Below, piece after piece: positions 26,037 to 54,318 of a DNA stretch of 64,000 nt. The number at the start of each line of letters is the position of its first letter. The stretch's first letter is position 1. The translations under genes were made by a program, and so were the position numbers. Below the pieces are notes generated by a model. The model had not been told where the DNA came from. It did not search any database and was given only the letters and a program-made list of their open reading frames with translations. The stretch lies in the NCBI RefSeq assembly GCF_009914755.1, contig NC_060928.1; one strand, given 5' to 3'. This stretch comes from the human T2T-CHM13v2.0 reference genome, Homo sapiens.

Positions 26037-26268
26037 CACAGCACTTCTTAAAAAAATAAAAGTAAAGGAAAAAGCCAGACCTAATAATCTACTCAATCTA
26101 GTAAATATCATAAGATCCTCAGGAAGAACTCATATTTGTGGGGTGACCCTTGCCAGTCTTCAAGATTTTCCTCTCTAAAGTTTACCACAGCAAAGCTTTG
26201 TGAACCTGTCAGTTTCTTGATATGAGATTCAATGTTTTATGTCATTTCTTATTTATTTCTGCTTATAG

Positions 26269-26587
<319 letters not shown>

Positions 26588-27984
26588 GGCTATATGCATT
26601 TCAAGTCTAGCCCCATATCTTGCCTCTCTTTCACTGTTCCCTATTTCTTGCCCTCAAATCTATTCCAAAAAAATTATCTTCAATAGACCTTGTTTATCAT
26701 GCAGATTTCATAGATGATTTCTCATCAATATTGTGAATCCTGGACTGAAATCTGTTCCCTAAAGAGCTGCCAAAATGCAAACCTGATCTACAATACTTGT
26801 AGTGAACCTGTAATTAAGGTAAAAATTATGTAAAATCAACACATCTGGAAGTTTATGACACAGGAAACTCTCAGAACAAATGGTTACAGGGCTTGGTAGT
26901 TGATGCAAACTATACTTTAACTCAGGTGGGGATGGGGTAGCAAGGAAATAGGAAGATTTAGAGCAGGTGAGGGCAGCAGGAAGAAAAGAGGAATCCACTT
27001 CCATAAGTGAGTGAGGAGAGTAGTAACTTCAGTACTACCATCTTTCTTTGAGAGAGAACTATAGCATCAAAATTAGATTCTTACAGCAACTCCATGCAAC
27101 ACAATCAATATGTATTGAGCACCTTCGATGGGCAAAGCAGCAAAAAGACAAAGTGAACAAGAAAGAGACTGGTCTGCCACACTTCCACAATTAACTACTT
27201 AGAACATATTTGTTCAAGTATTAAAGAGTTGATTTTTATTTAAAACCTTATTTATGCATCACTTTTTTCCCATTAAAAGATGCTTATGGAAAAATGGGTG
27301 GTGATATGACCAGAGGAAAATGAAGGTAGAGAAGATGAAACTATGAGTACTGTAAATACATAACATGCATGGCATAGGTCTTTCACATTTGTTAGAAGTG
27401 GGTCAAAAATCTGATCCTCAGCGTTCTGACAGCCATTGCATAAACAACACCACTGGCTATACGCTTCACTGTCTGTATAATATACACTGCATCTGCTCTG
27501 GAGAAACCCAACTATTCTAATATTAAGACTAGACAGCAATTTCTTCCATGGGTCCTCTTAATGGGTACCTTTAACTGACTACCAATGTTTCATCAACCTC
27601 TTTTTTCAAAGGTATGCCAATGTGGAAAATTCAGTGAAAACATTTGGGTGAAGGTTCCTATGCCACAAAGTTAAATACTTAGCTCAGAGAACAGCGAGCT
27701 GGTGTGTGTTTAAAAAACAAGGAAAATTAATACTGTTAAAGTAAATGCGATAAAAAAAGATTCTTCTAGAATATGGCTGAGATAATGCTGTTTCGTTCAT
27801 TATCTAATGGTTGATAACTTCTAGGATAACCTAAGATGTCTGTTATATAAAGCTTTTAGGGTTCTGACGATAATCCTGAATAAGAAATACTTCACAGATA
27901 AAAACACTGGTAACAGAATGAAGCATTAGAGAGAGACTTACTCTAATTCATTATGATATGCGAAACCCATCAAATAAATTTTCA

Positions 27985-28321
<337 letters not shown>

Positions 28322-28337
28322 TGAAAGGAAAAACAGT

Positions 28338-28699
<362 letters not shown>

Positions 28700-29056: not shown

Positions 29057-29302
29057 TTAAGACCAGCCTGACCAATATGGTGAAACCCCATCTCTACTAA
29101 AAAATACAGAAAATTAGCTGGGTGTCGTGGCAGGCACCTATAATCCCAGCTACTTGTAAGGCTGAGCCAGGAGAATTGGTTGAAGAGTAGATGTCTTTTT
29201 TGAGACGCGAGGCAGAGGTTGCAGTGAGCCGAGATCGCATCATTGCACTCCAGCCTGGGCGACAGAGCGAGACTCCATCTCAAAAAAAAAAAAAAAAAAA
29301 AA
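29057..29302 (+). mobile_element. 5'-truncated AluS with a non-Alu patch at ~29185-29208
   Basis: Begins mid left monomer; A tail present. Confidence 0.88.
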
Positions 29303-29590
29303 AGTGCTGTGGACACAGGTGGTATTATATTCAACTGCATATATAACTTTTTATAATGAATGCACTGCCCAAATCACATTTCTGGAACCTAAAGATGAAT
29401 TTGCTTATTTTCAACCTCTTGGGCGTAACAGTAAATAATGAATGCCCTGATCCTGTGCTGAGGAAGGAAGACTTATCTATTTGATAAGTCCTTCTTGTTT
29501 TTTCTGACTCTGCATGGTACTGTATGTGTTCCTGTGGGGCATGTACAGTACATACATGTTATGTACAAACATAGTATGTTTTCTTTTGTT

Positions 29591-29810
29591 AAACATTTTG
29601 TTTGTTTTTGGAGATCGAGACCATCTTGGCCAACATGGTGAAACCAAACCTGGTCTCTACTAAAATACAAAAAATTAGCCAGACATGGTGGCACGTGCCT
29701 GTAATCCCACCACCAAGGCTGGCTAATTTTTTGTATTTTAGTAGAGACCGAGTTTGGTTTCACCATGTTGACCAAGACGGTCTCGATCTCCAAAAACAAA
29801 CAAAGTGTTT
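29591..29810. repeat. ~220-nt inverted repeat built from an internal Alu fragment plus flanking sequence
   Basis: 29591-29682 and 29719-29810 are reverse complements with 5 mismatches. Confidence 0.95.
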
Positions 29811-29839
29811 GTTTCCTAGTGGCTGAATGGGATATTTGA

Positions 29840-30300
<461 letters not shown>

Positions 30301-53488: not shown

Positions 53489-53821
<333 letters not shown>

Positions 53822-53936
53822 TCTCGAGTATTTTCTTAACTTGATCTTTTAAATGTTCTTTTGAGGTTTCTCTTTATGCTGTTTTAATTCTTTAATTTCC
53901 AAGAACTATACTTTATTTGCTGAATTTCCTCCTTTA

Positions 53937-54318
<382 letters not shown>

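What the first reader, a model, noticed from the sequence alone, without database searches (positions are those of the whole stretch)
29591..29810. Near-perfect 220-nt Alu hairpin apparently copied from a specific Alu 3 kb upstream
Seen: 92-bp arms (29591-29682 and 29719-29810) are reverse complements with only 5 mismatches, all transitions, and pairing continues imperfectly into TGGTGG/CCACCA. The arms include ~19 nt of non-Alu flank (AAACATTTTGTTTGTTTTT). There is no Alu 5' end, tail or TSD. Both arms carry GAAACCAAACC, a 5-nt duplication relative to the Alu consensus that I find elsewhere in the window only in the AluSc at 26282-26587 (GGGTTTGGTTTCACC, ~26475). Inference: a local templated insertion with fold-back (template switching or break repair), not retrotransposition. 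It gives MCUB pre-mRNA a ~100-bp stem, a candidate ADAR or Drosha/Dicer substrate and a DNA cruciform. Closely spaced, highly similar inverted Alus are known to be unstable and depleted in the genome.
Basis: partly seen in the sequence, partly recalled or inferred. Interest (0 to 1): 0.75.

Follow-up and report, generated by a model that had tools for sequence, protein, structure and literature searches.

The report
Fold-back copy of a nearby Alu
A 220-base hairpin-forming palindrome in the first intron of MCUB is a real, old scar of DNA break or replication repair that copied about 100 bases from an Alu 3 kb upstream and then folded back on itself; it is a neat example of a known mutation type, with no function shown.

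Summary
The arms 29591-29691 and 29710-29810 are 101 nt long, 94 of 101 positions are complementary, and the spacer is 18 nt. The predicted RNA hairpin is -155.7 kcal/mol and 0 of 200 shuffles fold as well.

Each arm holds 82 nt of Alu plus 19 nt of unique flank, so the arms are copies of each other and not two separate insertions.

The Alu part derives from the full-length Alu at 26283-26587:
- The 16-mer that carries the 5-nt duplication occurs 16 times in the 3.1-Gb genome, and 3 of those are here.
- The other 12 Alu carriers are 75-84% identical to the left arm, against 92% for the local Alu.
- Wherever the arms disagree, one arm matches the donor, which gives a star-like tree.

Best reading: one repair event, in which a broken 3' end copied donor bases 26516 to 26414, snapped back, copied itself plus 19 nt of flank, and was end-joined. 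It is probably tens of millions of years old.

The mechanism is a known kind (template-switch and fold-back insertions). Editing, small-RNA processing and cruciform formation are untested, and the same intron holds two larger inverted Alu pairs. Interest is moderate to low.

The parts
29591..29609 (+). Outer 19 nt of the left arm. It is unique, non-Alu, T-rich flank (AAACATTTTGTTTGTTTTT). One of the two flank copies is the original local sequence and the other is its inverted copy.
   Evidence: Does not align to the donor Alu. The 26-nt flank/Alu junction occurs exactly only in the two arms genome-wide. The left context 29310-29609 is single copy in the genome.
29610..29691 (+). Left arm, Alu part in sense orientation. 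It corresponds to donor positions 72 to about 156, counted from the donor's 5' end.
   Evidence: 92.2% to 26414-26516 over 103 columns, together with the loop. Two private changes against the donor.
29692..29709 (+). Spacer or loop of 18 nt. It is still a colinear copy of the donor Alu (up to donor position 174) and ends in CCA, next to the fold-back point.
   Evidence: It differs from the donor at one CpG (CACGTG here, CACATG in the donor).
29710..29791 (-). Right arm, Alu part. It is the reverse complement of the left arm and lies in the same orientation as the donor on the + strand.
   Evidence: Four private changes against the donor.
29792..29810 (-). Inverted copy of the 19-nt flank. It shows that the arms are copies of each other and not independent Alu insertions.
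   Evidence: 18 of 19 match the reverse complement of 29591-29609. The right context 29785-29850 is single copy in the genome.
26414..26516 (-). Donor segment inside the upstream Alu, 3,075 nt upstream of the palindrome.
   Evidence: Best match in the window (92.2% against 84.0% for the next). Best match among the genome candidates that were scored (149 bits against 128). Shares the 5-nt duplication and three other rare states with both arms.
26283..26587 (-). Full-length Alu (antisense on the + strand) that holds the donor segment. It is an ordinary retrotransposed copy with a T-rich tail.
   Evidence: It is flanked by perfect 15-nt direct repeats GGCTATATGCATTTC at 26268-26282 and 26588-26602.

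Best explanation
The 220-nt palindrome is the scar of a single complex repair event at a chromosome break or collapsed fork in MCUB intron 1. The pathway below is inferred; only the end product is seen.

1. A 3' end lay at the edge of the T-rich unique sequence. This was either the top strand ending at 29609 or, in the mirror version, the bottom strand ending at 29792.
2. The end was extended by copying about 103 nt of the Alu 3.1 kb upstream, window 26516 back to 26414.
3. The new strand came off the donor and folded back on itself about 18 nt from its tip, where a terminal CCA faces TGGTGG.
4. It then copied itself back through the 82 nt of Alu and 19 nt of original flank.
5. It was joined to the other broken end with 0-3 nt of microhomology.

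The result is flank, sense Alu fragment, loop, antisense Alu fragment, inverted flank, with no tail and no target-site duplication. The event is old, roughly 10-40 million years. The structure now sits as a neutral passenger in the intron. Its transcript would fold into a ~100-bp imperfect duplex, but no function is shown.
For: Shown:
- The arms include 19 nt of unique flank in inverted orientation, so they are copies of each other.
- The donor is identified. The 16-mer with the 5-nt duplication has 16 genome hits, 3 of them within 3.3 kb here. Of the 13 others, one is a non-Alu chance match. The other 12 lie in different Alu backgrounds at 75.0-84.3% identity, against 92.2% for the donor.
- Against 21 other Alus of the window, donor and both arms share the 5-nt insertion (0 of 21), a C-to-G change (0 of 21), a C-to-T change (1 of 21) and a 1-nt shorter A run (1 of 21).
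- Star-like tree. In the 70-column core, 66 columns are identical in all three, 3 changes are private to the right arm, 1 to the left arm and 0 to the donor. Over the whole shared Alu part the private changes are 2 (left), 4 (right) and about 2 plus a 3-nt indel (donor). Only one change, at a CpG, is shared by the two arms (with a hand re-alignment of 17 nt). Copying and inversion were therefore simultaneous or nearly so.
- The donor is a normal Alu with a perfect 15-nt target-site duplication. The copy has no tail, no 5' end and no duplication.

From the literature:
- Yeast break repair produces local fold-back inversions of 10 to over 150 bp, with a hairpin loop and joining of the displaced strand to the other end.
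- It also produces complex insertions of two inverted fragments of one donor locus (PMC11724301, abstract and sections 15 and 19).
- Human template-switch events reach 97-180 bp in unmasked DNA (PMC9435742 passages).
Against: - No pre-insertion allele was available (no primate or population data). The order of steps, which flank is native, and whether target DNA was lost are therefore all inferred.
- Microhomology at the three junctions is weak: none at the flank/Alu junction, at most 3 nt (CCA) at the fold-back and then only if a 3-nt slip is assumed, and none evident at the last junction. This fits end joining better than microhomology-mediated replication restart.
- One CpG is mutated in the same way in both arms and differently in the donor. 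This needs either a copying error in the first synthesis, a short single-copy interval, parallel decay, or arm-to-arm conversion.
- Divergence is uneven: 1 difference in the 70 core columns against 4 substitutions plus an indel in 30 loop-proximal columns between the left arm and the donor. It is largely at CpGs.
- The genome-wide similarity search scored only 40 of 796 candidates.
Confidence: 0.65

Rival explanations
1. Two separate events. First, a tail-less Alu fragment (about 100 nt or more) was placed here as a single copy. It came either by a templated patch from the upstream Alu or as a non-classical, endonuclease-independent Alu insertion. Later, a short-range template-switch mutation made the inverted copy, replacing whatever lay beside it.
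For: Both arms share one CpG change (CA) where the donor has TG, which is what an interval as a single copy would give. [quoted passage not shown] Template-switch mutations create hairpins in one step from existing sequence (PMC10710096 and PMC9435742 passages).
Against: The internal branch carries at most one change, and it is at a CpG, against 2-4 changes on each terminal branch. Any interval was therefore short. An RNA-derived non-classical insertion has no reason to come from the Alu 3 kb away. By hand estimate, the chance of landing that near is about 1 in 100,000 or less.
Confidence: 0.15
2. An aberrant L1-driven or otherwise RNA-templated event. A staggered break was made at an L1-endonuclease-like site (GTT|AAAC). 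Its 19-nt 3' overhang primed synthesis on an antisense-Alu template, either cDNA or the nascent MCUB pre-mRNA, which carries the donor Alu in antisense. The new strand snapped back, copied itself to the end of the overhang and was joined to the other end.
For: From the sequence: the outer boundary of the palindrome lies at TT|AAAC, and the duplicated flank is 19 nt, a typical target-site-duplication length. The consensus site and the length range are recalled, not tested. The sense-Alu strand of the left arm is complementary to the + strand transcript of the donor. A pre-mRNA template would explain why the donor is local.
Against: There is no poly(A) tail and no direct duplication. The primer end (TTTTT) does not pair with the donor downstream of the copy start. 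The region is T/A-rich, so a TT|AAA boundary can occur by chance. A Pol III Alu transcript from the donor would reinsert anywhere in the genome. Nothing here separates an RNA template from a DNA template.
Confidence: 0.08
3. An independent Alu fragment at 29.6 kb exchanged sequence with the Alu at 26.4 kb by gene conversion, in either direction. The shared rare variants would then reflect conversion and not origin by copying. The palindrome arose separately.
For: Divergence between the left arm and the donor is uneven: 1 of 70 core columns against 4 substitutions plus a 3-nt indel in about 30 loop-proximal columns. This could mark a conversion tract boundary. That nearby Alus undergo gene conversion is recalled, not checked here.
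Against: The loop-proximal differences are mostly at CpGs. With the indel placed in the C run, the arms' inferred ancestor again matches the donor, including a shared G-to-C transversion. The homology stops abruptly at GGAGATC, where the arms continue into unique flank, so no larger recipient Alu is visible. This reading needs three events where one is enough.
Confidence: 0.07
4. Assembly or sequencing artefact: a fold-back chimera.
For: Palindromes can be produced by library or amplification chimeras (recalled). Only one assembly was available here.
Against: The arms differ at 7 of 101 positions. The pattern is evolutionary: each difference is private to one arm and the other arm equals the donor. 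An artefactual fold-back would be a perfect copy. The flanks are single copy and continuous.
Confidence: 0.02

Closest known systems
Fold-back inversions and inverted templated insertions at double-strand breaks (yeast; Yu et al. 2024, PMC11724301; abstract and sections 15 and 19 read)
   Same: The inverted copy of break-adjacent sequence has a hairpin loop of tens of nt. Copy length is 10 to over 150 bp. The displaced nascent strand is joined to the other end with 0-5 nt of microhomology. Complex insertions are made of two inverted fragments of one donor locus.
   Different: Here both features are combined in one product: an ectopic donor 3.1 kb away plus a fold-back that runs into the local flank. 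The product is fixed in a primate germline, and the donor is an Alu. The enzymes cannot be inferred.
Short-range template-switch mutations (PMC9435742 and PMC10710096; passages read)
   Same: An inverted repeat that can fold as an RNA hairpin is created in one step, and mismatches accumulate later.
   Different: The reported mean length is 11.6 bp, with maxima of 97-180 bp in unmasked DNA. Those scans removed repeat-masked loci. The classic model copies neighbouring sequence only, whereas here the copied material first came from 3 kb away.
Non-classical (endonuclease-independent) Alu insertions (PMC5402677; passages read, citing Srikanta et al. 2009, which I did not read)
   Same: The Alu fragment is truncated at both ends, has no tail and no target-site duplication, and is accompanied by non-Alu bases. 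The size is about 100 nt.
   Different: Those insertions are thought to be RNA-derived patches from any expressed Alu. Here the source is the neighbouring Alu, the fragment is present twice in inverted orientation, and the extra non-Alu bases are a copy of the local flank.
Closely spaced inverted Alu pairs, as fragile quasi-palindromes and double-stranded RNA sources (Lobachev et al. 2000, seen only through passages of PMC10164571 and PMC7999016)
   Same: Inverted Alu sequence with a spacer under 20 nt and over 90% identity. This is the class reported as recombinogenic in yeast and rare in the human genome.
   Different: The arms are 101 nt and not about 320 nt. They arose by duplication and not by two insertions. 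There are two mismatches within 9 nt of the centre, and the spacer is 18 nt. The cited passages say that going from a 12-nt to a 20-nt spacer lowers recombination about 40-fold, and that a single mismatch near the centre lowers it markedly.

Membership tests
Fold-back / template-switch inverted duplication | An inverted copy lies next to its template with a short spacer | tested here: met
   101-nt arms, 18-nt spacer, 94 of 101 complementary
Fold-back / template-switch inverted duplication | The arms contain unique local sequence, so they are copies of each other and not two independent repeat insertions | tested here: met
   19-nt non-Alu flank in both arms, 18 of 19 matching. The junction 26-mer is found exactly only in the two arms in the genome
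Fold-back / template-switch inverted duplication | An ancestral allele without the inverted copy exists in an outgroup or population | not testable with these tools
   No primate or pangenome data. The flanks are single copy, so there is no paralogous empty site
Fold-back / template-switch inverted duplication | Microhomology at the switch points | tested here: inconclusive
   None at the flank/Alu junction. At most 3 nt (CCA against TGG) at the fold-back, and only if a 3-nt slip is assumed. None evident at the last junction (reading)
Templated insertion from an ectopic donor | One donor matches better than any other genomic copy and shares private mutations | tested here: met
   Donor 92.2% against 84.0% for the next best in the window. 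149 against 128 bits genome-wide, with 40 of 796 candidates scored. The 5-nt duplication is in 0 of 21 other window Alus, and the 16-mer has 16 genome hits, 3 here
Classical Alu retrotransposition (target-primed reverse transcription) | Intact 3' end with a poly(A) tail | tested here: not met
   The Alu part stops at donor position 174 of 306, with no A tail on either side
Classical Alu retrotransposition (target-primed reverse transcription) | Direct target-site duplications | tested here: not met
   The 19-nt flank copies are inverted, not direct. The donor Alu, by contrast, has perfect 15-nt direct repeats
Classical Alu retrotransposition (target-primed reverse transcription) | An L1 endonuclease-type cleavage site at the insertion boundary | tested here: inconclusive
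   The left boundary reads GTT|AAAC. This resembles the recalled TT|AAAA consensus, but the region is T/A-rich
Non-classical Alu insertion | 5' and 3' truncated fragment without tail or duplication | tested here: met
   Donor positions 72-174 only. No tail or duplication
Non-classical Alu insertion | Derived from Alu RNA, so the source is not expected to be the neighbouring element | tested here: not met
   The source is the Alu 3.1 kb upstream
MicroRNA precursor or other curated RNA family | A match to a curated model at its gathering score | tested here: not met
   14 matches at E up to 1 in 29300-30300, none at threshold. Those over the hairpin score 23-56 bits against thresholds of 55-130
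Inverted-Alu double-stranded RNA (ADAR substrate) | A long intramolecular duplex in a transcribed strand | tested here: met
   Predicted only: -155.7 kcal/mol on the MCUB sense strand. The intron position comes from the hub's gene table
Inverted-Alu double-stranded RNA (ADAR substrate) | Observed A-to-I editing or small RNAs | not testable with these tools
   No RNA data. 0 papers hold CCDC109B, A-to-I and Alu together

The most novel reading that the evidence does not exclude
The palindrome may be a fossil of break repair that used RNA as template. A staggered, L1-endonuclease-like break (boundary GTT|AAAC, 19-nt overhang) would have been extended by a reverse-transcribing polymerase on the nascent MCUB pre-mRNA. 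That transcript carries the upstream Alu in antisense and is tethered at the locus. The extension was followed by snap-back second-strand synthesis. This would explain three things at once: the local donor, the lack of pairing at the first junction, and the target-site-duplication-like length of the duplicated flank.
Probability: 0.08. Interest if true: 0.7.

Novelty: new member of a known kind. Interest (0 to 1): 0.35.

Why it matters
It is an unusually legible natural record of a two-switch repair event. Donor, fold-back point and end-joining point can all be read from one genome. With about 100-nt arms it sits at the upper end of the lengths reported for template-switch mutations. It also lies in repeat-masked DNA, which the published scans removed from their high-quality sets (PMC9435742 passages).

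It shows that an inverted Alu repeat with an 18-nt spacer and 93% identity can persist for a long time in a human intron.

It makes one sharp, cheap prediction about the empty allele in other primates. Beyond that it is a neutral-looking intronic relic. No effect on MCUB is shown, and larger inverted Alu duplexes lie in the same intron.

Tried and rejected
- Rfam scan of 29300-30300 at E up to 1: only sub-threshold hits, namely generic hairpin matches to unrelated microRNA models and SRP-like matches to Alus. No known RNA.
- Search for a paralogous empty site: both flanks are single copy in the genome, so the pre-insertion state could not be read.
- Search for the flank/Alu junction elsewhere: exact only in the two arms. 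The four 2-mismatch hits differ in the Alu-derived bases.
- The chr8 hit that seemed to share the flank (L034) is a different structure: a T run plus GAGATGGAG in front of an Alu truncated at the same position. It is not a relative.
- The 19-mer flank has no other close copy in the window. The 2 other hits at 3 mismatches are T runs.
- The idea that the 5-nt duplication marks an Alu subfamily was rejected. The 12 other Alu carriers lie in different Alu backgrounds, several of them inside chr7 duplications.
- Survey for look-alikes with three palindromic Alu patterns:
  - Pattern 1 found 10 loci. Two others have arms of about 147 nt (90% and 82%), but these end at Alu 5' ends and could be two tail-to-tail Alus with a central deletion.
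  - Pattern 2 found 11 loci. Of these, 6 have a fold-back alignment across the centre with a spacer under 20 nt: five have arms of 20-60 nt and one is a weak 219-column alignment at 63%. The other 5 have no such pair.
  - Pattern 3 found 0 loci.
- I also looked by eye for an ADAR-like or APOBEC-like bias in the arm differences. There are too few changes to see a consistent pattern.
Lobachev et al. 2000 is not held.

Full report
**What is there.** The sequence at 29591-29810 is a near-perfect palindrome. The arms 29591-29691 and 29710-29810 are 101 nt long, ungapped and complementary at 94 of 101 positions, with an 18-nt spacer. The inner 9 nt add two transversions. Pairing stops at the arm ends: 1 of the next 14 pairs is complementary. 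As RNA the + strand, which is the MCUB sense strand by the hub's gene table, folds into one hairpin of -155.7 kcal/mol (z = -23.1; 0 of 200 shuffles as good). As DNA it folds at -102.1 kcal/mol (z = -22.5). Of the five inverted pairs of at least 30 nt within 300 nt in the whole window, this is the longest and the most complementary.

**Anatomy.** Each arm consists of 19 nt of T-rich unique sequence on the outside and 82 nt of Alu on the inside. The left arm reads sense Alu. The loop continues the same Alu colinearly for 18 nt, and the right arm reads back in antisense. In the coordinates of the upstream element, counted from its 5' end, the copied piece is positions 72-174 of 306. There is no Alu 5' end, no A tail and no direct repeat around the unit. 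The 19 nt of non-Alu sequence is present in both arms in inverted orientation (18 of 19 matching), and the 26-nt flank/Alu junction occurs exactly only in these two places in the genome. The arms must therefore be copies of each other and not two independent Alu insertions.

**Where the Alu part came from.** The window's genome could be searched.
- The 16-mer that spans the 5-nt duplication occurs 16 times in 3.1 Gb. Three hits are here: the two arms and 26477-26492 in the Alu at 26283-26587.
- Of the 13 other hits, one is a chance match outside an Alu. The other 12 lie in other Alu backgrounds, seven of them on chromosome 7, several in what look like duplicated blocks. Their identity to the left arm's Alu part plus loop is 75.0-84.3%, against 92.2% for 26414-26516.
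- Within the window the donor scores 92.2% over 103 columns. The next best of 33 hits scores 84.0%.
- A genome-wide similarity search put the other arm first (93%, 151 bits), the donor second (92%, 149 bits) and everything else at 128 bits or less. It scored only 40 of 796 candidates, so it is not exhaustive.
- Against 21 other Alus of the window, chosen only by coverage, donor and both arms share four rare states. These are the 5-nt insertion (0 of 21), a C-to-G change (0 of 21), a C-to-T change (1 of 21) and an A run shorter by one base (1 of 21). They also share two states present in 4 of 21, which look like subfamily markers.
- By hand estimate, about 14 independent occurrences in 3.1 Gb make a chance meeting within 3.3 kb a matter of a few in 100,000.

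The donor itself is an ordinary retrotransposed Alu with a T-rich tail and perfect 15-nt direct repeats at 26268-26282 and 26588-26602. I did not verify the label AluSc.

**Order and age of events.**
- In the 70-column core (GGAGATC to TTAGC), 66 columns are identical in donor and both arms. Three changes are private to the right arm, one (a CpG) to the left arm, and none to the donor.
- The automatic alignment mis-places a 3-nt indel in the next 17 nt. With the indel placed in the donor's C run, which the independent alignment supports, each arm has one more private change.
- In that stretch the donor also has three extra C's. One CpG has decayed to TG in the donor and to CA in both arms.
- In the loop, the donor has lost a CpG that the left arm keeps.
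- The tree is therefore star-like: about 2, 4 and 2 changes on the three tips, and at most one change, at a CpG, on the branch shared by the arms.
- This is what a single event predicts, because any error made while copying the donor would be inherited by the second arm. It leaves room only for a short interval between two events.
- Two to four changes per roughly 87 nt per lineage, taken with recalled primate neutral rates of about 1 per 1,000 million years per site, suggest something like 10-40 million years. This is a rough inference from very few changes, and arm-to-arm conversion would make the structure look younger than it is.
- The evolutionary pattern of the seven arm differences also argues against an assembly artefact.

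**Mechanism.** The best reading is a break or collapsed fork whose 3' end, at 29609 or in the mirror version at 29792, went through five steps.
1. It copied the donor from 26516 back to 26414.
2. It came off the donor.
3. It folded back where its terminal CCA faces TGGTGG.
4. It copied itself through 82 nt of Alu and 19 nt of flank.
5. It was joined to the other end.

Microhomology is absent at the first junction. It is at most 3 nt at the fold-back, and then only with a 3-nt slip, since there are three CCA units where two would be templated. None is evident at the last junction. This fits end joining better than microhomology-driven replication restart.

Experimental parallels exist. In yeast, a single break yields local fold-back inversions of 10 to over 150 bp through a hairpin with a 41-nt loop, with the displaced strand joined to the other end at 0-5 nt of microhomology. 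It also yields complex insertions made of two inverted fragments of one donor locus (PMC11724301, abstract and sections 15 and 19). In humans, short-range template-switch mutations create inverted repeats and even microRNA hairpins in one step. Their mean length is 11.6 bp and their maximum 97-180 bp in unmasked DNA, and repeat-masked loci were removed from those scans (PMC9435742 and PMC10710096 passages).

**Rivals.**
- Two steps, a single-copy fragment first and a template switch later, is compatible with the one CpG change the arms share. The interval must have been short.
- An RNA-based or L1-initiated version is suggested by the boundary GTT|AAAC and the 19-nt flank length. It is also suggested by the fact that the MCUB pre-mRNA carries the donor in antisense, so a reverse-transcribing polymerase could copy it in cis. 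Nothing here tests this, and an ordinary Alu transcript would not reinsert 3 kb from home.
- Non-classical Alu insertions share the truncation at both ends and the lack of tail and duplication (PMC5402677 passages). They do not explain the local donor or the inverted flank.
- Gene conversion between an independent fragment and the upstream Alu needs three events. It is also not favoured by the abrupt end of homology at GGAGATC.

**Function and stability.** These could not be tested.
- No curated RNA family reaches its threshold.
- A full-text search for CCDC109B with A-to-I and Alu found 0 papers.
- The hairpin is not the only or the largest double-stranded element of this intron. The head-to-head Alu pair at about 27981-28306 / 28337-28644 is 73.7% complementary over 327 columns with a spacer of about 30 nt. 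The pair at about 53526-53820 / 53948-54244 is 85.9% over 298 columns with a spacer of about 127 nt. They are predicted to fold at -402.6 and -518.3 kcal/mol.
- On DNA fragility I could not read Lobachev et al. 2000. Passages that cite it say three things. Going from a 12-nt to a 20-nt spacer cuts inverted-Alu recombination about 40-fold. Divergence lowers it exponentially. Even one mismatch near the centre lowers it markedly (PMC10164571).
- With 101-nt arms, an 18-nt spacer, 93% identity and two mismatches within 9 nt of the centre, this palindrome is probably fairly tame. That agrees with its apparent age.

**How unusual it is.** I surveyed with three palindromic Alu patterns.
- Pattern 1 found 10 loci. 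Besides this one, two have arms of about 147 nt (89.8% and 82.2%). Those arms end at Alu 5' ends and contain no flank, so they may be two tail-to-tail Alus with a central deletion.
- Pattern 2 found 11 loci. Six have a fold-back alignment across the centre with a spacer under 20 nt: five with arms of 20-60 nt and one weak 219-column alignment at 63%. The other five have none.
- Pattern 3 found 0 loci.

In this limited survey the MCUB palindrome has the highest arm identity among arms of 100 nt or more. Among the long-armed loci whose arm ends I inspected (this one and the two), it is the only one whose arms cross a repeat/unique junction.

**Verdict.** The kind of event is known, and the biological consequences proposed for MCUB are unsupported so far. 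I rate it a new member of a known kind, of moderate to low interest. It carries one clean prediction for primate genomes.

Noticed in passing
window 27981-28306 and 28337-28644: Two full-length Alus lie head to head with a spacer of only about 30 nt (73.7% complementary over 327 columns; 65-nt ungapped stretch at 89%). The predicted RNA fold of 27969-28660 is -402.6 kcal/mol. The right-hand Alu overlaps the RefSeq 'silencer' 28407-28624 of the hub's table.
   Followed up: partly
window 53526-53820 and 53948-54244: A second head-to-head inverted Alu pair: 85.9% over 298 columns, spacer about 127 nt, predicted fold of 53500-54280 at -518.3 kcal/mol. It is a larger double-stranded RNA source in the same intron than the finding itself.
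   Followed up: partly
L058 (G000:C10:15584873-15584916 and flanks): Perfect 42-nt inverted arms with a 12-nt spacer at the 5' end of an Alu. The arms run 4 nt beyond the Alu end. This looks like a young short-range template-switch event.
   Followed up: partly
L044 (G000:C4:17577447-17577510 and flanks) and L046 (G000:C7:44715682-44715731 and flanks): Tail-less palindromes made of two Alu 5' halves: arms of about 147 nt, 89.8% and 82.2% complementary, spacers of 22 and 14 nt. The arm ends coincide with Alu 5' ends. They could be tail-to-tail Alu pairs that lost their centre, or fold-back duplications.
   Followed up: partly
L034 (G000:C8:6141801-6141918): An Alu truncated at the same position as the arms (GGAGATCGAG...) is preceded by a T run plus GAGATGGAG. 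That is an inverted copy of an Alu 3' end and tail, joined at a GGAG microhomology, and the element keeps its own A tail. It may be a snap-back or template jump during retrotransposition.
   Followed up: partly
L009, L014-L024 (chr1, chr6, chr7, chr10, chr20, chrX of G000): The same 5-nt tandem duplication (GGTTT) in the Alu left arm has arisen in several unrelated Alu backgrounds. Seven of the 12 Alu carriers lie on chromosome 7 in two sequence types that look like copies within segmental duplications.
   Followed up: partly
window 29963-30014 (- strand): A sub-threshold match to the mir-1268 precursor model (59.5 bits, threshold 83) inside the neighbouring antisense Alu at 29847-30147. It most likely reflects the Alu origin of that microRNA family.
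   Followed up: no
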